A stretch of DNA of 64,000 bases. It comes from Escherichia coli. GTDB lineage: Bacteria > Pseudomonadota > Gammaproteobacteria > Enterobacterales > Enterobacteriaceae. Each line of letters opens with the position of its first letter. Position 1 is the stretch's first letter. Positions 6,804 to 45,068 of the stretch are shown here, piece after piece. Location: NCBI RefSeq assembly GCF_024502345.1, contig NZ_JALDNN010000001.1. One strand, 5' to 3'. The translations under genes were made by a program, and so were the position numbers. Under the pieces are notes generated by a model. The model was not told the DNA's origin. It saw only the letters and a program-made list of their open reading frames with translations, and did no database searches.

Positions 6804-7112
<309 letters not shown>

Positions 7113-7139
7113 TTGTCACCAATTGAATCACGGGAGTAA

Positions 7140-8447
<1,308 letters not shown>

Positions 8448-20130: not shown

Positions 20131-21255
20131 ATGGTCGATACAGAAATTTGGCTGCGTTTAATGAGCATCAGCAGCTTGTACGGCGATGATATGGTCCGTA
20201 TCGCTCACTGGGTGGCAAAACAGTCGCATATTGATGCGGTTGTATTGCAGCAAACAGGGCTTACATTGCGGCAGGCACAACGCTTTCTTTCATTTCCACG
20301 AAAGAGTATCGAAAGCTCACTTTGTTGGTTGGAGCAACCTAACCATCATTTAATCCCTGCGGACAGCGAATTTTATCCTCCTCAACTTCTGGCGACGACA
20401 GATTACCCCGGCGCACTGTTTGTTGAAGGAGAACTGCACGCGCTGCATTCATTTCAGCTTGCCGTAGTGGGGAGTCGGGCGCATTCATGGTATGGCGAGC
20501 GATGGGGACGATTATTTTGCGAAACTCTGGCGAAGCGTGGAGTGACAATTACGAGTGGACTGGCGCGTGGAATCGATGGTGTGGCGCATAAAGCAGCCTT
20601 ACAGGTAAATGGCGTCAGCATTGCTGTATTGGGGAATGGACTTAATACCATTCATCCGCGTCGCCATGCCCGACTGGCTACCAGTTTGCTTGAACATGGT
20701 GGGGCACTTGTCTCGGAATTTCCCCTCGATGTTCCACCCCTTGCTTACAATTTCCCACGAAGAAATCGCATTATCAGTGGTCTAAGTAAAGGTGTACTGG
20801 TGGTGGAAGCGGCTTTGCGCAGTGGTTCGCTGGTGACAGCACGTTGTGCGCTTGAGCAGGGGCGTGAAGTTTTTGCCTTGCCAGGTCCATTAGGGAATCC
20901 GGGAAGCGAAGGGCCTCACTGGTTAATAAAACAAGGTGCGATTCTTGTGACGGAACCGGAAGAAATTCTGGAAAACTTGCAATTTGGATTGCACTGGTTG
21001 CCAGACGCCCCTGAAAATTCATTTTATTCACCAGATCAGGAAGACGTGGCATTGCCATTTCCTGAGCTCCTGGCTAACGTAGGAGATGAGGTAACACCTG
21101 TTGACGTCGTCGCTGAACGTGCCGGCCAACCTGTGCCAGAGGTAGTTACTCAACTACTCGAACTGGAGTTAGCAGGATGGATCGCAGCTGTACCCGGCGG
21201 CTATGTCCGATTGAGGAGGGCATGCCATGTTCGACGTACTAATGTATTTGTTTGA
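20131..21255 (+). CDS. dprA: DNA-protecting protein DprA (Smf)
   Basis: ORF track 374 aa; divergent from def. Confidence 0.9.
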
Positions 21256-35562: not shown

Positions 35563-38500
35563 TTATCCTTTAAAGCAACGGCGGATCACCACAAAGAACA
35601 CCGGTACGAAGAAGATTGCCAGCAACGTTGCAGAGACCATTCCTCCCATTACCCCGATACCCACAGCGTTCTGCGCGCCACTGCCGGCACCGTTACTGAT
35701 AGCCAGCGGTAATACGCCGAGAATAAAGGCGAGAGAGGTCATCAGGATAGGACGCAGACGCATACGTACTGCCATTAGTGTCGCTTCAACAACACCTTTA
35801 CCCTCTTTCTCCATGAGATCTTTAGCGAACTCAACAATCAAAATAGCGTTTTTGGCCGACAAGCCAATTGTCGTTAGCAAGCCCACCATAAAGTAGACGT
35901 CATTTTTTTGATTAAAGAGTGTCGCCGCCAGCAGCACGCCGACAATCCCTAACGGCACGACCAACATAACCGAGACAGGAATTGACCAGCTTTCATAGAG
36001 TGCAGCAAGGCACAGGAAAACAACCACAAAGGAAATTGCTACCAGAGCGGGAGCCTGGTTTCCCGATAAGCGTTCCTGATACGACATACCCGTCCAGTCA
36101 TAACCAATGCCCGCAGGTAATTTTGACGCAAGGTTTTCCATCAACGCCATGGCATCGCCGGAACTGGTTCCTGGCGCGGCTTCCCCCTGAATCTCCATTG
36201 ACGGCAGACCGTTGTAGCGTTCCAGTCGCGGAGAGCCATACACCCAATGTGAAGTGGTAAAGGCAGAGAATGGCACCATTTCGCCGTTGGCGCTGCGGAC
36301 ATAAAGTTTATCGACATCTTCTGGCAGCATACGGAATTTGGCATCCGCCTGAACATACACCTTTTTCACGCGACCACGGTCGATGAAGTCGTTAACGTAA
36401 GTCCCACCCAGCGCCGTTGAAATGGTCTGATTGATGTCAGAAAGTGAAACACCTAATGCCTGCGCCTTTTCCTGGTCAACTTCCAGTTTAAACTGCGCGG
36501 TGTCTTCCAGGCCATTAGGACGCACGCTGACTAAGCTGGCAGGATGTTGCGCCGCCATACCAAGCAACTGGTTACGGGCCTGGGTTAGGGCATCGTGACC
36601 CAGCCCAGCCTGATCAATTAACTCAAAGTCGAAACCCGTTGCCGTGCCCAGTTCAACAATGGCTGGCATATTGAATGGAATGACAAAACCGTCGCGGATC
36701 TTGCCCAACTCCATTTTGGCACGATGGATTACCGCTTCCGCACTGTTTTCGTCACCACTACGCTCTTCCCACGGTTTCAGACTGACGAAGGCCATACCGG
36801 CGTTTTGTGCCTGGCCGCTGAAGCTAAAGCCGTTAACCGTAAAGACACTTTCAACGTTTGCTTTCTCGTTCTTCAGATAGTAATCCGTCACTTGATCCAA
36901 CACTTTTTGCGTCCGCTCTTGCGTCGCGCCAGCGGGTAACTGAATCATGGTCAGAAAGACACCCTGATCCTCTTCAGGTAAGAAGGAAGACGGAAGACGT
37001 AAAAACAACACCACCATTCCTGCAACAATCAGCGCATAGATCAGTAAATATCGTCCTGTGGAACCGAGGATTTTGCCGACGCTGTTGGTGTAGTGGTTAA
37101 CGCTATGATCGAAGGTGGTATTAAACCAGCCGAAGAAACCGCCCTTATTTTCGTGATGCTCAGCAGAGACGGGTTTAAGCAGCGTTGCACATAACGCAGG
37201 GGTAAGAATCAATGCCACCAGAACAGAAAGCGCCATTGCCGAAACGATGGTGATAGAGAACTGGCGATAAATTGCCCCAGTAGAACCGCCGAAGAATGCC
37301 ATCGGAATAAATACCGCTGACAGCACCATCGCGATACCCACCAGTGCGCCCTGAATTTGCGACATTGATTTTTCCGTCGCTTCTTTTGGCGGGAGCTTAT
37401 CCTCCATCATCACGCGCTCGACGTTCTCCACCACCACTATCGCATCATCGACGAGCAGCCCGATGGCAAGCACCATCCCGAACATCGTTAGTGTGTTGAT
37501 GGAGTAACCAAAAGCGGCGAGGATGGCAAACGTCCCTAACAACACCACGGGTACCGCAATGGTGGGGATCAGCGTTGCTCGCATATTCTGCAAGAACAGA
37601 TACATCACCAGGAACACCAGCATAATAGCTTCGAACAGTGTTTTTACCACTTCGTGAATAGAAAGCTGGACGAATGGCGTGGTGTCATAAGGGTAGAGAA
37701 CCTTCATTCCCTGCGGGAAGAATGGCTGTAATTCCGCCAGTTTTGCCTTAATGGCTTTCGCGGTATCGAGAGCATTCGCGCCGGTTGCCAGCTTAATCCC
37801 CAGGCCCGCCGCCGGTTTTCCGTTGATACGAGCGATAACGTTATAGTTTTCACCGCCAAGTTCAACCCGTGCGACATCTTTCAGGCGTACCACCGAGCCG
37901 TCACTGTTTACGCGCAGGGTCACTTTGCCGAATTCTTCCGGATTTTTTAACCGCGTTTGAGCAATAATCGAGGCATTCAACTGTTGCCCTGGTAACGCTG
38001 GCGTTCCGCCCAACTGTCCGGCAGCGATCTGATCGTTCTGTACCTTCAACTGGTTAATCACATCAACCGGTGTCAGTTTATATTTGTTTAGCAGATCGGC
38101 GTCCAGCCAGATACGCATCGCATACTGTGCGCCGAAAAGCTGTACGTCACCGACGCCATTCAGACGGCTAAGCGTATCTTTAACGTTAGAGGCCACATAG
38201 TCCGAGATATCGTCCTGTGTGGTGTCTGGGTTATCAGAGACAAAGCCCGCCACCATCAAATAGCTGCTACTGGACTTTTCAACACTGATCCCCTGCTGCT
38301 GAACCTCCTGCGGCAGCAACGGCGTGGCGAGCTGGAGTTTGTTCTGCACCTGCACTTGCGCGATATCAGGATCGGTCCCGGACTGGAAGGTAAGGGTAAT
38401 TGTCACGCTACCGGCGGAATCGCTGGTGGAGGACATATACATCAGGTTATCGATACCATTCATATTCTGTTCGATAACCTGCGTCACCGTATCCTGCACG

Positions 38501-38667
38501 GTCTGCGCATCAGCACCTGGATAGTTTGCCGAAACAGAAACCGCAGGCGGTGCAATGGTTGGATACTGAGCGACGGGCAATTGTAGGATCGCCAGTGCGC
38601 CCGCCATCATCAGAATAATGGCCAGCACCCATGCAAATATCGGTCGTCGAATAAAAAAGTTTGCCAT
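35563..38667 (-). CDS. acrF: RND multidrug efflux transporter AcrF
   Basis: ORF track 1034 aa; AcrB-family. Confidence 0.96.
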
Positions 38668-38678
38668 GTCAGATTACC

Positions 38679-39836
38679 TTACTTCGATGCAGTATCTGCG
38701 GGGGTATCGGTAGTGGCTTTAACCTGCTCTCCCGGACGCGCTTTTTGCAGGCCGCTGACAATGACTTGATCGCCAGATTTCAGACCTTCGCTAATCAACC
38801 ATTTATCGCCAATCGCCTGACTGGCAACGACAGGGCGCGCTTCCACCTGACTTTTATCGTTAACAATCAGCACGGTTGCATCACCACGCGGTGTGCGGCT
38901 AACGCCTTGTTGCGGGATAAGAATGGCGTCAGGTTGGACGCCTTCATCAATCCGTGCACGCACAAACATACCCGGCAAAAGCGTATGTTGCGGGTTAGGG
39001 AAGACAGCACGTAGGGTTATGGAGCCGGTGCTTTCATCAACGGTCACATCAGAGAATTGCAGCGTACCTTTCAGGGGATAGGTTTGACCGTTTTCCATGA
39101 CCAACTCTACGTTGCTGGTGGCGTTTTCCTTATGCAAATTTCCTTGCTCTACGGATTGCTTCAGCCTCATAAAATCGTTGCTGGATTGGGTCACATCAAC
39201 GTAGATAGGATCGAGCTGCTGGACAGTCGCCAGTTCAGTCGTTTGCCCATTAGTGACAAGAGCGCCTTCGGTCACGGTCGATTTGCCGATACGTCCGCTA
39301 ATTGGCGCAGTCACTTTGGTATAAGCGAGATTGATGCGAGCGCTTTCGACTGTGGCTTTTGCGGCAATCACGGCGGCATCGGCCTGGCGAGCATCAGCAA
39401 TGGCCTGGTCGTACTCCTGCTGGCTGATGTATTTCGTACCCACGAGCGGAACGTAACGTTTTACCGTCAAATGCGCGATGGCGGCGGCGGCTTCACTTTT
39501 CGCCAGTTCGCCTTTCGCGCTGTCATAATTTGCCTGATAGGTCGCGGGATCGATCTGGTACAGGGACTGGCCTGCTTGTACATCGCTGCCTTCAGTGAAA
39601 TTACGATTCAGTACGATCCCGCTAACCTGTGGGCGAACTTCGGCTATACGGTAAGCATTGGTGCGGCCTGGTAATTCAGTCTTAACTTCTAACGGGGCCG
39701 TTTTCACAATATGAACGGTAACCTGCGGTTCACCGACGTGAGCTTTCTCTTCTCCCTTATCGTTACAACCGGCGATTAAAGCCGCGGAGATCAGAATAAA
39801 GGAGGGCAGGAGGAAAAACCTGGCATGTTTCGTCAT
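38679..39836 (-). CDS. acrE: Periplasmic adaptor (membrane fusion) protein AcrE
   Basis: ORF track 385 aa with lipobox LIAGC. Confidence 0.96.
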   Translation of the reverse strand: MTKHARFFLLPSFILISAALIAGCNDKGEEKAHVGEPQVTVHIVKTAPLEVKTELPGRTNAYRIAEVRPQVSGIVLNRNFTEGSDVQAGQSLYQIDPATYQANYDSAKGELAKSEAAAAIAHLTVKRYVPLVGTKYISQQEYDQAIADARQADAAVIAAKATVESARINLAYTKVTAPISGRIGKSTVTEGALVTNGQTTELATVQQLDPIYVDVTQSSNDFMRLKQSVEQGNLHKENATSNVELVMENGQTYPLKGTLQFSDVTVDESTGSITLRAVFPNPQHTLLPGMFVRARIDEGVQPDAILIPQQGVSRTPRGDATVLIVNDKSQVEARPVVASQAIGDKWLISEGLKSGDQVIVSGLQKARPGEQVKATTDTPADTASK

Positions 39837-40258
39837 TACTATTCCTCAAAAAACCAAAAGCGCGTTATTTACCCAGAAAGGCAACGCGTTAACTCGCAGA
39901 AAGAAAAATACAGTTCGCTATCCTACAAATTATCATTCGTCGATGTAAGGAATAGTTATGAATACTGGCGTCTCAAGGCACATAAACACAAAAAAAGATT
40001 AATATTCTACTGTTTTATTTTGACGCGGGTTGAAAGAGGCAGAATTAAAACCTCGTAAATTGAAATATATATTCATGTGGCGAATGTATTTTAGGTAAAT
40101 AATATATATTATTTATTTGACGATTTATAGCAACTCAATGTTACCCTCTCGTATAAATACACATTAGATGATAGATTAACCTTCGCTATTTTCTCACCCT
40201 GTGTCGAATATATTTATTTCCTGAATAATTAATCATGGCAAAAAGAACCAAAGCCGAA

Positions 40259-40267
40259 GCTCTGAAG
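40259..40267. repeat. 9-bp target-site duplication GCTCTGAAG (left copy)
   Basis: Identical 9-mer directly flanks both IS ends. Confidence 0.9.
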
Positions 40268-40285
40268 GGCTTTGTTGAATAAATC
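40268..40285. repeat. IS903 left terminal inverted repeat
   Basis: GGCTTTGTTGAATAAATC. Confidence 0.9.
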
Positions 40286-40299
40286 GAACTTTTGCTGAG

Positions 40300-41268
40300 T
40301 TGAAGGATCAGATCACGTATCTTCCCGACAACGCAGACCGTTCCGTGGCAAAGCAAAAGTTCAAAATCACCAACTGGCCCACCTACAATAAAGCCCTCAT
40401 CAACCGTGGCTCCATAACTTTCTGGCTGGATGATGAAGCTATTCAGGCCTGGTATGAGTCAGCAACACCTTCTTCACGAGGCAGACCTCAGCGCTATTCT
40501 GACCTTGCCATCACGACTGTGCTGGTCATTAAACGCGTATTCAGGCTGACCCTGCGCGCTGCGCAGGGCTTTATTGATTCCATTTTTTCTCTGATGAACG
40601 TTCCGCTACGCTGCCCGGATTACAGCTGTGTCAGCAGGCGGGCAAAGTCGGTTAATGTCAGTTTCAAAACGCCCACCCGGGGTGAAATCGCACACCTGGT
40701 AATTGATTCCACCGGGCTGAAGGTCTTCGGTGAAGGCGAGTGGAAAGTCAAAAAGCATGGCCAGGAACGCCGCCGTATCTGGCGTAAGCTGCATCTCGCC
40801 GTTGACAGTAAAACACATGAAATCATCTGCGCTGACCTGTCGCTGAACAACGTTACGGACTCAGAGGCCTTCCCCGGGTTAATCCGGCAAACCCACCGGA
40901 AAATCAGGTCAGCCGCCGCCGATGGCGCTTACGATACCCGGCTATGTCACGATGAACTGCGGCGTAAGAAAATCAGCGCGCTTATCCCTCCCCGAAAAGG
41001 TGCGGGTTACTGGCCCGGTGAATATGCAGACCGTAACCGTGCAGTGGCTAATCAGCGAATGACCGGGAGTAATGCGCGGTGGAAATGGACAACAGATTAC
41101 AACCGTCGCTCGATAGCGGAAACGGCGATGTACCGGGTAAAACAGCTGTTCGGGGGTTCACTGACACTGCGTGACTACGATGGTCAGGTTGCAGAGGCTA
41201 TGGCCCTGGTACGAGCGCTGAACAAAATGACGAAAGCAGGTATGCCTGAAAGCGTGCGTATTGCCTGA
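40300..41268 (+). CDS. IS903-family DDE transposase
   Basis: ORF track 322 aa (MKDQITYLPDNADRSVAKQKFKITNWPTYNK...); the track start is a TTG codon, true initiation codon uncertain. Confidence 0.88.
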   Translation: MKDQITYLPDNADRSVAKQKFKITNWPTYNKALINRGSITFWLDDEAIQAWYESATPSSRGRPQRYSDLAITTVLVIKRVFRLTLRAAQGFIDSIFSLMNVPLRCPDYSCVSRRAKSVNVSFKTPTRGEIAHLVIDSTGLKVFGEGEWKVKKHGQERRRIWRKLHLAVDSKTHEIICADLSLNNVTDSEAFPGLIRQTHRKIRSAAADGAYDTRLCHDELRRKKISALIPPRKGAGYWPGEYADRNRAVANQRMTGSNARWKWTTDYNRRSIAETAMYRVKQLFGGSLTLRDYDGQVAEAMALVRALNKMTKAGMPESVRIA

Positions 41269-41306
41269 AAACACAACCCGCTACGGGGGAGACTTACCCG
41301 AAATCT

Positions 41307-41324
41307 GATTTATTCAACAAAGCC
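41307..41324. repeat. IS903 right terminal inverted repeat
   Basis: GATTTATTCAACAAAGCC, exact reverse complement of the left IR. Confidence 0.9.
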
Positions 41325-41333
41325 GCTCTGAAG
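41325..41333. repeat. 9-bp target-site duplication GCTCTGAAG (right copy)
   Basis: Identical to 40259-40267. Confidence 0.9.
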
Positions 41334-41965
41334 ACCCGGCAAGAACTGATTGAAACTGCCATCGCCCAGTTTGCGCAACATGGCGTAAGCAAGACGACGC
41401 TCAACGACATTGCCGATGCCGCTAACGTTACGCGTGGCGCTATCTACTGGCACTTCGAAAACAAGACTCAACTGTTTAATGAGATGTGGTTGCAACAGCC
41501 TTCATTGCGGGAGTTAATCCAGGAACACTTGACGGCTGGATTAGAGCATGACCCGTTTCAACAATTGCGTGAAAAATTGATTGTCGGCTTGCAATATATT
41601 GCCAAAATTCCCCGCCAGCAGGCGTTGCTGAAAATCTTATATCACAAATGTGAATTTAATGATGAGATGCTGGCCGAGGGAGTGATACGCGAAAAGATGG
41701 GCTTTAATCCGCAGACTCTCCGCGAAGTATTGCAGGCGTGTCAGCAACAAGGTTGTGTAGCAAATAACCTCGATTTAGATGTTGTGATGATTATTATTGA
41801 TGGTGCCTTCAGCGGAATTGTTCAAAACTGGTTAATGAATATGGCGGGTTATGATCTTTATAAACAAACCCCCGCTCTGGTCGATAACGTATTAAGAATG
41901 TTCATGCCAGATGAAAACATAACGAAATTAATTCATCAAACGAATGAATTAAGTGTCATGTAAAT

Positions 41966-43214: not shown

Positions 43215-43382
43215 TGTAAAATACAGAGTCATTATACGTAATTTATTATCACTCTAGATAATTTGTATTCATCATAAATAATTGATGCGGAAAGAGATAT
43301 TTATTTTTTATTGGCTCGCATTGTATCATCAGTTATCAGTTACTCCCTGCATACAGTTGTCAAAAAGGTTGTCATTAACTCT

Positions 43383-43551
43383 ATGGCCGAAAATAAACTC
43401 TCAGATGTTCAATTGCGTGCGTTAACCCGCAAAGTCATCGAAAAACCTTTTGATGTTGCTGACGGTGGCCAAGTTGGGTGAAAACCTGCTATGCAGCTAC
43501 CGCATAAGGGTAGTGGATTCCGCTGAAATCTTGCCGTTCATCCGATCATAA
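43383..43551 (+). pseudogene. Tyrosine-integrase N-terminal (arm-type DNA-binding domain) fragment, frameshifted and truncated
   Basis: Hand translation: MAENKLSDVQLRALTRKVIEKPFDVADGGQVG-stop, then +1 frame LGENLLCSYRIRVVDSAEILPFIRS; resembles the EKPY..DG(N/G)GLYL...WxxRY pattern of P4-type integrase N-termini. Confidence 0.45.
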
Positions 43552-43575
43552 CATCACAACAGTTGTTGCCCATTA

Positions 43576-43606
43576 CCCTGGCGAATGCCGGGGCTTTTTT
43601 TATTTT
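43576..43606 (+). terminator. Candidate intrinsic terminator downstream of the integrase fragment
   Basis: Imperfect stem CCCTGG..CCGGGG followed by CTTTTTTTATTTT. Confidence 0.3.
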
Positions 43607-43619
43607 CAAAGTGACGCCT

Positions 43620-43923
43620 AGGTGTCATTAATTTATAAGGTGTCATGGTAGGTGTCATTGTTCTCAAGCCATAACCCGCAAGGGTTGCGACATTACTAAT
43701 GACACCTATGACACCTATGACAGCATTTTTAAAGAAAATAACGACCACTGTAATAATGTAACAGTGGTCGTTATACTTTATAGAAATGGGTGTCATGGTG
43801 TCACAGGTGTCATTCATTACAGTATCTTGTTTGTATTTTTCTTTAATAATCAGCGTGTTTCCCGCTATGACACCTAATGACACCTTTCCAACATAACGCC
43901 GTCATGGTGACATTAGGTGTCAT
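43620..43923. repeat. Array of 13 copies of the 9-bp motif AGGTGTCAT in both orientations
   Basis: Forward copies at 43620, 43638, 43650, 43789, 43797 (GGTGTCAC), 43805, 43906 (GGTGACAT), 43915; reverse ATGACACCT at 43699, 43708, 43717 (degenerate), 43867, 43877. Confidence 0.85.
43738..43774. repeat. Perfect palindrome with 14-bp arms and 9-nt AT-rich loop, at the centre of the motif array
   Basis: ATAACGACCACTGT-AATAATGTA-ACAGTGGTCGTTAT. Confidence 0.85.
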
Positions 43924-44274
43924 CGCCATCTGCTGCCAAAAAAGTCAAGGTACTTCCGAGGGGGGTACAGCCTGCGGGGGCATTGGTCCCGCGTAATTCG
44001 CGTTGTGCGTGCCCCTACAAAACTCACTTTATGATTACGTCAAGTAAATCAATCATTTATGTGAATCCTATCAAAGCACTGGCACCATACGTGCGCGATT
44101 GCAAAATAAAGCGAACACGTTTTACACACGCTGAATTGTAAAGATGTGTAAATATCGATTACGCCGGATTATGCCGGGTTATTTGCAAGTATTCAGGGTT
44201 ATAAGTTACTGATTTTACATTAAAAAGCTCACATTGTGGCTATTGTGTTCGGTCTGGTTACTGTATATCTTTAA

Positions 44275-44991
44275 GTCATTCCAGGCGATTTAGCTGGCCT
44301 GGCGCTGGCAGGTTATCAGATTTACCGCCATTGGGCTGGTGTGAAGGCTTTCTTTGGCGGAGTGGGTGAAGGCATCAAATCCGGGCTGGAACCGCTTAGC
44401 GACGCTCTGAGCCGCCTTTATGAACGCATGGGGCCGCTGAAACCTGTCATTGATGGTGTGGGTGCTGCGGTTAAGACGGTTTTCAACTGGTTCACGTCAT
44501 TGACCGAGCCGGTCAAGTACAGTGGCGAGGAACTGGATAAGGCCGGTAAAATGGGGATGACGTTCGGTAAGACCCTGGCGGCTGGCATCGAGCTTGTGAC
44601 CGCACCGATCACGTTCCTGATTGATAAGATTCTGTGGGTGTCTGACAACATCGGCAACCTGACCAACAAGGCACTGGAGTTTAAAAACGCCGTGTCTGAT
44701 GTTGCTGGTGGTGCGTGGCAGAAAACCAAAGATTTCTTTACCGCACCATTCCGCGACGATGTACAGCAGCCAGCAGCAACCACTGCCTCTGGTGCTGCCC
44801 TGCCGTCACCTGCACTGGCCAACCGCTCTGGTGGCACTACGGTGCATAGCAACGACCAGTACCACATCAGCGTGAAGGCAGAACCTGGTATGAATGAAGA
44901 TGCATTAGCCCGGAAGGTGATACAGCAACTACGACAGCAACAAGCAGTAAGGCAGCGAAGCATGATGATAGATGGCGCGCAAACACCATAA
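44275..44991 (+). pseudogene. 5'-truncated ORF, possibly a phage tail tape-measure-like protein C-terminal region
   Basis: Frame is open from 44275 (stop at 44272-44274) with no good start or RBS; Gly/Ala-rich and hydrophobic segments (GVGAAVKTVFNWF, ITFLIDKILWV); product guessed from composition only. Confidence 0.35.
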
Positions 44992-45068
44992 GGGTTGTCA
45001 GTACGGTTGCAACAAAAAGTAAAGGGACTGAAATAGCCCCTTTAATTTCATGCCGTTACAGCTTGACT

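What the first reader, a model, noticed from the sequence alone, without database searches (positions are those of the whole stretch)
40259..41333. IS903-family insertion inactivating acrS (envR), the TetR repressor next to the acrEF efflux operon
A 1057-bp element with exact IS903-type 18-bp inverted repeats and a 9-bp duplication (GCTCTGAAG) splits acrS after codon 11, before the TetR HTH region (..TRQELIETAIAQFAQHGVSKTTLNDIA.. lies downstream of the IS). That gives a likely null acrS allele. AcrS represses acrAB, and IS insertions in the acrS-acrE region are known to activate the otherwise silent acrEF operon. Here the IS left end is about 430 bp upstream of acrE, with the transposase reading away from acrE.
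Basis: partly seen in the sequence, partly recalled or inferred. Interest (0 to 1): 0.6.

Follow-up and report, generated by a model that had tools for sequence, protein, structure and literature searches.

The report
IS903B insertion knocks out acrS
A common jumping gene (IS903B) has recently landed in the first few codons of acrS, an E. coli repressor of drug-efflux pumps; this is a real but ordinary gene knockout, and nothing in the sequence suggests it switches on the neighbouring acrEF pump.

Summary
Window 40268-41324 is an intact 1057-bp IS903B-type element with exact 18-bp inverted repeats and a DDE transposase. It is flanked by a perfect 9-bp duplication (GCTCTGAAG) and sits after codon 11 of acrS. 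Removing the IS and one repeat restores a 220-aa AcrS that is 219/220 identical to K-12. A near-identical relative (GCA_050022275.1, 2 SNPs in 12.7 kb) has the empty site with a single copy of the 9-mer, so the insertion is recent. None of 5,426 complete E. coli genomes carries either junction, and 5,217 carry the uninterrupted site. The allele is a null for DNA binding. The product stops at 15 aa inside the left repeat. The first in-frame start downstream of the IS is M62, after the TetR_N domain (residues 16-62).

The functional hint is weaker. Published acrEF-activating insertions lie 86-187 bp upstream of acrE. This one lies 432 bp upstream, leaves the 398-bp intergenic region native, and shows no outward or hybrid promoter. 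The literature describes AcrS mainly as an acrAB repressor whose deletion has little effect, because the locus is H-NS-silenced.

Verdict: a real, new allele of a well-known kind, of low interest.

The parts
40259..40267 (.). Left copy of the 9-bp target-site duplication GCTCTGAAG (acrS codons 9-11)
   Evidence: Relatives have only one copy.
40268..41324 (+). Intact IS903B-type insertion sequence (IS5 family, IS903 group), 1057 bp
   Evidence: It is 100% identical over its full length to copies annotated as IS5-like element IS903B in E. coli, Salmonella, Citrobacter and Klebsiella chromosomes and plasmids. It is 92.6% identical to IS102 of pSC101.
40268..40285 (+). Left 18-bp terminal inverted repeat GGCTTTGTTGAATAAATC. 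It contains the TAA (40280-40282) that terminates the truncated acrS reading frame.
40300..41268 (+). Transposase ORF. It is 322 codons from TTG 40300, the form annotated on equivalent copies. The 307-aa form starts at GTG 40345.
   Evidence: NCBIfam NF033579 IS5 family transposase, 357.6 bits against a cutoff of 140. Pfam DDE_Tnp_1_5 and DDE_Tnp_1. The equivalent CDS is annotated in pSC101 at 6948-7916.
41307..41324 (-). Right 18-bp terminal inverted repeat, exact complement of the left one
41325..41333 (.). Right copy of the 9-bp target-site duplication GCTCTGAAG
40235..40267 (+). acrS 5' fragment, codons 1-11
41334..41963 (+). acrS 3' fragment, codons 12-220 plus stop. It has no in-frame ATG, GTG or TTG before M62 (41484), so any product lacks the TetR_N DNA-binding domain.
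   Evidence: A gene caller's 159-aa remnant carries only TetR_C domains.
39837..40234 (.). Native AT-rich (31.9% GC) acrS-acrE intergenic region, undisturbed
   Evidence: 386 of 398 nt identical to BW25113, with no indels. GC profile.
35563..39836 (-). Intact acrE (385 aa) and acrF (1034 aa)
   Evidence: Both are RND adaptor and permease family hits. The same genes are annotated as acrE and acrF in colinear genomes.

Best explanation
One intact copy of IS903B transposed recently into acrS, between codons 11 and 12, and made the usual 9-bp target duplication.

Shown:
- The element is complete and identical to widely circulating copies.
- The target gene is otherwise wild type.
- The closest relatives have the empty site.
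- The only possible acrS products are a 15-aa peptide, or a fragment from M62 that lacks the TetR_N DNA-binding domain and has no good ribosome-binding site.
The allele is therefore a null for AcrS repressor function.

Inferred from the literature:
- AcrS is chiefly a strong repressor of acrAB, co-expressed with acrEF.
- The acrS/acrEF locus is normally H-NS-silenced.
- Loss of AcrS should therefore change little under ordinary conditions. It only removes the brake on acrAB in conditions where the locus is derepressed.

Inferred from the sequence:
- The insertion does not itself activate acrEF. It lies 432 bp from acrE, the whole native intergenic regulatory region is intact, and no outward or hybrid promoter faces acrE.

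The event is most simply a neutral or nearly neutral IS hit in a poorly expressed regulator gene.
For: - Anatomy.
- IS identity: 100% over 1057 bp to many IS903B-annotated copies on chromosomes and plasmids of four genera. DDE transposase confirmed.
- Target gene: the restored ORF matches AcrS model NF007430 at 431.8 bits against a cutoff of 274. It is 219/220 aa identical to K-12 AcrS. TetR_N covers residues 16-62.
- Empty site: present in 5,217 of 5,426 complete genomes. The junctions are present in 0.
- Recency: L007 (GCA_050022275.1) has 0 mismatches in 2,993 nt on the left and 2 in 9,667 nt on the right, with an intact 220-aa AcrS and one copy of the 9-mer. L013 and L008 are likewise intact.
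- Target site: it matches the published IS903 preferred motif WTTYA-N9-TRAAW (PMC2577343) at only 1 of 10 specified positions, so this is not a hotspot.
- No cis-activation signal: the intergenic region is native, and no promoter-like site lies in or across either IS end.
- Literature: EnvR/AcrS is predominantly an acrAB repressor rather than an acrEF repressor, and its deletion gave little or no effect, attributed to H-NS silencing (PMC9780535). Activating IS positions are -86 to -187 (PMC9783932).
- Precedent: an independent IS1 disruption of acrS at codon 25/26 exists in another strain. acrS is therefore hit by IS elements in nature.
Against: - No expression or MIC data exist for this strain, so neutrality is an inference.
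- The promoter scans are simple consensus matches and cannot exclude weak or non-sigma-70 outward transcription.
- Placing 1 kb of 52.7% GC DNA at the edge of a 32% GC H-NS-type tract could in principle alter silencing.
- The state of acrAB, acrR, marR and the rest of the genome is unknown because they lie outside the window. A background in which acrS loss is selected cannot be ruled out.
- The loss-of-function data cited are from Salmonella, not from this E. coli lineage.
Confidence: 0.85

Rival explanations
1. The knockout is adaptive in trans. Loss of AcrS removes a strong repressor of acrAB, raising AcrAB-TolC efflux, and it was selected by antibiotics, bile or biocides.
For: - AcrS/EnvR binds the acrAB promoter more tightly than AcrR and can override activators (PMC9780535; PMC4462101).
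- IS disruption of the analogous repressor acrR is a recurrent resistance route (PMC7771234; PMC3662882).
- The site is not an IS903 preferred target, so chance targeting is not favoured.
- acrS is also hit independently by IS1 in another strain.
Against: - Deletion of envR gave little or no phenotype, because the gene is H-NS-silenced.
- About 96% of complete E. coli genomes keep the site intact and none share this allele. There is no sign of recurrent selection at population scale.
- The allele is private relative to near-identical relatives.
Confidence: 0.12
2. The IS activates acrEF in cis. It would do so either through outward transcription from its left end or by disturbing H-NS silencing of the AT-rich acrS-acrE region, as IS1, IS2, IS5 and IS10 insertions do.
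For: - IS insertions in the acrS/acrE intergenic region raise acrEF expression (PMC4462101; PMC9783932; PMC6599122).
- acrEF is H-NS-repressed.
- The IS abuts a 32% GC tract.
- acrE and acrF are intact.
Against: - All documented activating insertions checked lie 86-187 bp from the acrE start, including those loosely reported as being in acrS. This one is at 432 bp.
- The full 398-bp intergenic region is native.
- No promoter-like hexamer pair lies in the left end or spans the junction on the acrE-directed strand, even at 8 of 12 matches.
- The transposase reads away from acrE.
- The known cases arose in acrB-defective backgrounds, which cannot be assessed here.
Confidence: 0.05
3. It is an assembly artefact: a repeat wrongly placed into acrS.
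For: IS903B is a multicopy repeat in many genomes, and repeats are a common source of misassembly.
Against: - A perfect 9-bp duplication of target sequence immediately flanks exact IS termini.
- The flanks rejoin seamlessly to the empty site of relatives, with an overlap of exactly 9 bases.
- A misjoin would not create a target-site duplication of the length typical of IS903.
Confidence: 0.02

Closest known systems
IS1/IS2/IS5 (E. coli) and IS1/IS10 (Salmonella) insertions upstream of acrEF that activate the operon in acrB mutants (Kobayashi 2001; Jellen-Ritter & Kern 2001; Olliver 2005; PMC9783932; PMC7771234)
   Same: Same locus (the acrS-acrE divergent region), and an IS element as the mutagen.
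   Different: Those insertions lie 86-187 bp upstream of acrE, in the intergenic region. They supply outward or fusion promoters and were selected in acrB-defective strains. This one is inside the acrS ORF at -432. It is an IS903B with no detectable outward promoter, and it leaves the intergenic region intact.
IS disruption of acrR (IS1, IS5, IS2, IS3-IS629), which derepresses acrAB
   Same: An IS inserted in a TetR-family repressor of acrAB, giving a loss-of-function regulator allele.
   Different: acrR is expressed and its loss has a measurable resistance phenotype. acrS is normally silenced and its deletion has little effect.
acrS::IS1 in Logan assembly SRR27314641 (L003)
   Same: An independent natural IS disruption of the 5' part of acrS, at codon 25/26 inside TetR_N.
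   Different: A different IS (IS1), a different site 43 nt further into the gene, and a different strain background that lacks the island remnant between yhdJ and fis.
IS903B and IS102 reference copies (for example downstream of blaCTX-M-14; IS102 of pSC101)
   Same: Same length (1057 bp), the same 18-bp termini and a DDE transposase. The element is 100% identical to many IS903B-annotated copies.
   Different: It is only 92.6% identical to IS102, and the divergence is mosaic: 76 mismatches in positions 1-720 and 2 in positions 721-1057. The CTX-M-14-associated copies differ by about 5% at the left end.
IS903B insertion in mgrB of Klebsiella pneumoniae (colistin resistance). This is from my own knowledge and was not tested here.
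   Same: The same IS inactivates a small negative regulator gene in an Enterobacteriaceae chromosome.
   Different: mgrB loss has a strong selected phenotype. No such phenotype is established for acrS loss.

Membership tests
IS903 group of the IS5 family | Element of about 1057 bp | tested here: met
   1057 bp between the duplicated 9-mers. The length is the same as IS102 in pSC101, with no gaps in the alignment.
IS903 group of the IS5 family | Perfect 18-bp terminal inverted repeats GGCTTTGTTGAATAAATC | tested here: met
   Exact at both ends, and the only two occurrences in the window. The termini are the same in IS102.
IS903 group of the IS5 family | 9-bp target-site duplication | tested here: met
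   GCTCTGAAG on both sides, and a single copy in empty-site relatives. A 9-bp TSD is listed for IS903 in PMC2577343.
IS903 group of the IS5 family | Single DDE transposase of the IS5 family | tested here: met
   NF033579 at 357.6 bits against a cutoff of 140. Pfam PF13737 and PF01609.
IS903 group of the IS5 family | Near-identity to the curated IS903B reference, to settle the isoform name | tested here: inconclusive
   The element is 100% identical to many copies that PGAP labels IS903B and 92.6% identical to IS102.
AcrS/EnvR (TetR-family repressor) | Full-length match above the curated cutoff to the AcrS/EnvR equivalog model | tested here: met
   The restored ORF scores 431.8 bits against NF007430, cutoff 274, covering 1-220 of 220. 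It is 219/220 identical to K-12 AcrS.
AcrS/EnvR (TetR-family repressor) | TetR_N HTH domain plus a MAATS-type C-terminal domain | tested here: met
   In the restored protein, PF00440 covers residues 16-62 and PF08361 covers 84-202. In the actual interrupted sequence no single ORF contains both.
AcrS/EnvR (TetR-family repressor) | Encoded divergently from acrEF | tested here: met
   acrE and acrF lie on the minus strand at 35563-39836, and acrS on the plus strand from 40235. The arrangement is the same as that annotated in FDAARGOS_943 and BW25113.
IS-mediated activation of acrEF | IS inserted within about 200 bp upstream of acrE (documented range -86 to -187) | tested here: not met
   The IS left end is 432 bp from the acrE ATG.
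IS-mediated activation of acrEF | Outward or hybrid promoter directed at acrE | tested here: not met
   No -35/-10 pair at 8 of 12 or better lies in the IS left end or across the junction on the minus strand. This is a consensus scan only.
IS-mediated activation of acrEF | Raised acrEF transcript or protein, and efflux-dependent resistance | not testable with these tools
   This needs RT-qPCR or RNA-seq and MICs on the strain.
IS-mediated activation of acrEF | Selection in a background with impaired AcrAB | not testable with these tools
   acrAB and acrR lie outside the 64-kb window.

The most novel reading that the evidence does not exclude
The insertion might be adaptive through a mechanism not yet described for this locus. 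One possibility is that an IS903B 432 bp from acrE, with no promoter of its own, relieves H-NS silencing of acrEF by separating the AT-rich intergenic tract from the acrS body. Another is that simultaneous loss of the AcrS brake lets both acrAB and acrEF be expressed together. Either would be a long-range, promoter-independent mode of IS activation at an efflux locus in a natural isolate.
Probability: 0.06. Interest if true: 0.4.

Novelty: new member of a known kind. Interest (0 to 1): 0.12.

Why it matters
For annotation, acrS in this strain should be called a pseudogene interrupted by IS903B. Resistome tools that simply report AcrS as present would be wrong. Biologically it adds one more natural example of IS-mediated loss of an efflux regulator. 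The expected phenotype is small, and the allele is private to this strain, so it does not bear on any open question. It would matter only if expression data showed an unexpected effect on acrAB or acrEF.

Tried and rejected
- **Same allele in complete genomes.** I searched both junctions against 5,426 complete E. coli genomes and found none.
- **Same allele by exact protein look-up.** Looking up the 159-aa acrS remnant returned only one contig, which turned out to be an IS1 insertion rather than IS903B.
- **Outward or hybrid promoters at the IS ends.** None was found at 9 of 12 or 8 of 12.
- **In-frame restart that would preserve the HTH.** There is none. The first start codon after the stop at 41247-41249 is M62, and it has a poor Shine-Dalgarno context.
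- **Target hotspot.** The site matches the published IS903 motif WTTYA-N9-TRAAW at 1 of 10 specified positions, so I rejected this.
- **IS102 identity.** Rejected, at 92.6%.
- **Langevin et al. as precedent for an IS inside acrS.** Rejected after mapping their coordinates. The insertions are intergenic, at -97 and -90 from acrE.
- **Primary papers.** Hirakawa 2008, Kobayashi 2001 and Jellen-Ritter & Kern 2001 are not held in the library. Their content is cited only through papers that summarise them.
- **Not run.** I did not scan metagenome contigs or genome contigs for the junction. The expected yield was low and the cost high.

Full report
**1. The observation**

- A 1057-bp segment (40268-41324) is bounded by exact 18-bp inverted repeats, GGCTTTGTTGAATAAATC.
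- With up to 3 mismatches allowed, these are the only two matches to that 18-mer in the 64-kb window. The chance expectation is 0.07, and none of 100 shuffles gave two or more.
- Immediately outside the repeats lies a perfect 9-bp direct repeat, GCTCTGAAG, at 40259-40267 and 41325-41333.
- The acrS start codon is at 40235. Eleven codons (MAKRTKAEALK) precede the element. The frame then runs into the left repeat and stops at TAA 40280-40282, giving a 15-aa peptide.
- Deleting the element and one 9-mer restores a 663-nt ORF.
- acrE (38679-39836, minus strand; 385 aa) and acrF (35563-38667; 1034 aa) are intact.
- The IS left end is 432 bp from the acrE ATG, and the transposase ORF (40300-41268, plus strand) points away from acrE.

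**2. What the element is**

- The ORF product matches the NCBIfam IS5-family transposase model NF033579 at 357.6 bits against a cutoff of 140.
- It carries Pfam DDE_Tnp_1_5 and DDE_Tnp_1.
- The whole 1057 bp is 100% identical to many copies annotated as IS5-like element IS903B. These occur on E. coli chromosomes and plasmids and on Salmonella, Citrobacter and Klebsiella plasmids. It is therefore the currently circulating, presumably active form.
- Against IS102 of pSC101 it aligns without gaps at 979/1057 (92.6%). The divergence is mosaic, with 76 mismatches in positions 1-720 and only 2 in 721-1057.
- Length, termini and the 9-bp duplication all fit the IS903 group. PMC2577343 lists 9 bp as the IS903 duplication length.
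- I could not compare it with the ISfinder references, so the isoform name rests on the PGAP annotation of identical copies.

**3. What the target is**

- The restored protein matches the AcrS/EnvR equivalog NF007430 over its full length, at 431.8 bits against a cutoff of 274.
- It differs from K-12 AcrS by one residue, A190T.
- It has TetR_N at residues 16-62 and TetR_C_2 at 84-202.
- The break after codon 11 therefore lies upstream of the DNA-binding domain.
- Downstream of the IS, the acrS frame is open from 41250, but it has no ATG, GTG or TTG before M62 at 41484. That codon has a poor ribosome-binding context.
- A gene caller's 159-aa product from M62 carries only TetR_C domains.
- The allele is a null for repressor function.

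**4. Empty site and age**

- The reconstructed empty site (200 nt on each side) is present uninterrupted in 5,217 of 5,426 complete E. coli genomes.
- Neither junction is present in any of them.
- The window is colinear with FDAARGOS_943 at about 99.1% identity. Besides the IS, it differs by a 1.85-kb segment at 43216-45068, which FDAARGOS_943 lacks. FDAARGOS_943 also carries a frameshifted IS5-family copy between dprA and smg that the window lacks.
- I used a lineage-specific neighbour, a 216-aa tape-measure-like ORF at 44341-44991, as an exact-sequence handle and recovered very close relatives.
- L007 (NCBI GCA_050022275.1) has 0 mismatches in 2,993 nt to the left of the IS and 2 in 9,667 nt to the right.
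- L007 also has an intact 220-aa AcrS. The two alignment blocks overlap by exactly the 9-mer.
- L013 (an ENA metagenome contig) and L008 (GCA_054852445.1) behave the same way.
- The insertion is therefore recent and, as far as these data go, private to the source strain. This also rules out misassembly.

**5. Target choice**

- The published IS903 preferred target is WTTYA-N9-TRAAW (PMC2577343 Table 1).
- Here the flanks are CCGAA and ACCCG, which match 1 of 10 specified positions. This is not a preferred site.
- acrS is nonetheless hit by other IS elements in nature. A Logan contig (SRR27314641) begins with 28 nt of an IS1 terminus fused to acrS at codon 25/26. The terminus was confirmed as IS1 by its annotated matches.

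**6. Likely consequence**

From the literature:
- AcrS/EnvR binds the acrAB promoter, more strongly than AcrR.
- It is described as predominantly a repressor of acrAB, not acrEF.
- It is proposed to act as a switch, being co-expressed with acrEF (PMC9780535; PMC4462101).
- In Salmonella, overexpression has strong effects. Deletion gave little or in some cases no effect, and this was attributed to H-NS silencing of the gene under laboratory conditions.
- acrEF is H-NS-repressed and very weakly expressed.

On that basis, the expected effect of this null allele is small in ordinary conditions. It removes the AcrS brake on acrAB only when the locus is derepressed.

**7. Does it activate acrEF in cis?**

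The documented activating insertions I could check are all close to acrE:
- IS1 at -138 or -187, IS2 at -86 or -90, and IS5 at -94 or -163 (PMC9783932).
- Langevin et al. say their ΔacrB isolates had an IS 'located in acrS'. Their coordinates, 3,407,126 and 3,407,133 in BW25113, fall 97 and 90 bp upstream of acrE in the intergenic region. They are not in the acrS ORF, which spans 3,406,162-3,406,824.

In the window:
- Those published positions correspond to 39922-40023, and all of that region is undisturbed.
- The 398-bp intergenic region is 386/398 identical to K-12, with no indels.
- No sigma-70-like hexamer pair lies in the IS left end or spans the junction on the acrE-directed strand. This holds at 9 of 12 and at 8 of 12.
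- The only matches are in native DNA at 40236-40168.
- The IS (52.7% GC) does abut a 32% GC tract, so an effect on H-NS silencing cannot be formally excluded. Nothing in the sequence supports one.

I rate cis-activation as unlikely, at about 0.05.

**8. Comparison and novelty**

This is a standard IS knockout of a regulator gene. The closest analogues are:
- IS insertions in acrR;
- the acrE-proximal activating insertions, which share the locus but differ in position and mechanism;
- the acrS::IS1 allele found here.

The specific allele, acrS::IS903B after codon 11, is absent from all complete E. coli genomes searched. It is a new member of a known kind and of low interest (0.12). Its practical value is for correct annotation, with acrS marked as a pseudogene.

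The most novel reading still open is a long-range, promoter-independent derepression of acrEF, or selection for loss of the acrAB brake. I give that about a 6% probability and moderate interest if true.

**9. Limits**

- No expression or phenotype data are available.
- acrAB, acrR and marR, and the donor IS copy, lie outside the window.
- The primary papers (Hirakawa 2008; Kobayashi 2001; Jellen-Ritter & Kern 2001) were not available and are cited only second-hand.
- The promoter scans are consensus-based.

Noticed in passing
window 43216-45068 (between yhdJ and fis): This 1.85-kb segment is absent from FDAARGOS_943. It contains a 216-aa ORF (44341-44991) with weak matches to phage tail tape-measure families. 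In relatives the same spot holds a longer island with an integrase, AlpA-like regulator and VapE-like protein (L009, L012, L015). The window therefore seems to carry a decayed remnant of an integrative element.
   Followed up: partly
L003 1-60 (Logan SRR27314641 contig_62): The contig starts with 28 nt of an IS1 terminus joined to acrS at codon 25/26, inside the TetR_N domain. This is an independent natural IS1 disruption of acrS in a different strain.
   Followed up: partly
window 40268-41324 compared with L004 6916-7972 (IS102 of pSC101): The similarity is mosaic: 76 mismatches in IS positions 1-720 (about 89% identity) but only 2 in 721-1057 (about 99.4%). This suggests past recombination between IS903-group isoforms.
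   Followed up: partly
window 40246-40267; L006 about 150-175 (pEC81-mcr10): The DNA just left of the IS contains CAAAGCCGAAGC. The same 12-mer lies just left of an unrelated IS903B copy in plasmid pEC81-mcr10. CAAAGCC is the reverse complement of the IS terminus GGCTTTG. This may be chance after searching thousands of flanks, or a hint of end-like target preference. The site does not fit the published WTTYA-N9-TRAAW motif.
   Followed up: partly
L002 (BW25113 3,407,126 and 3,407,133): The IS5 and IS2 insertions that Langevin et al. 2020 reported as 'located in acrS' map 97 and 90 bp upstream of acrE, in the intergenic region and not in the acrS ORF. They coincide with the -86 to -94 hotspot reported in PMC9783932.
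   Followed up: yes
L001 259-1172 (FDAARGOS_943), corresponding to window about 21239-21241: FDAARGOS_943 has a frameshifted IS5-family element between dprA and smg that the window lacks. The two genomes thus have different IS insertion histories in the same 40 kb.
   Followed up: no
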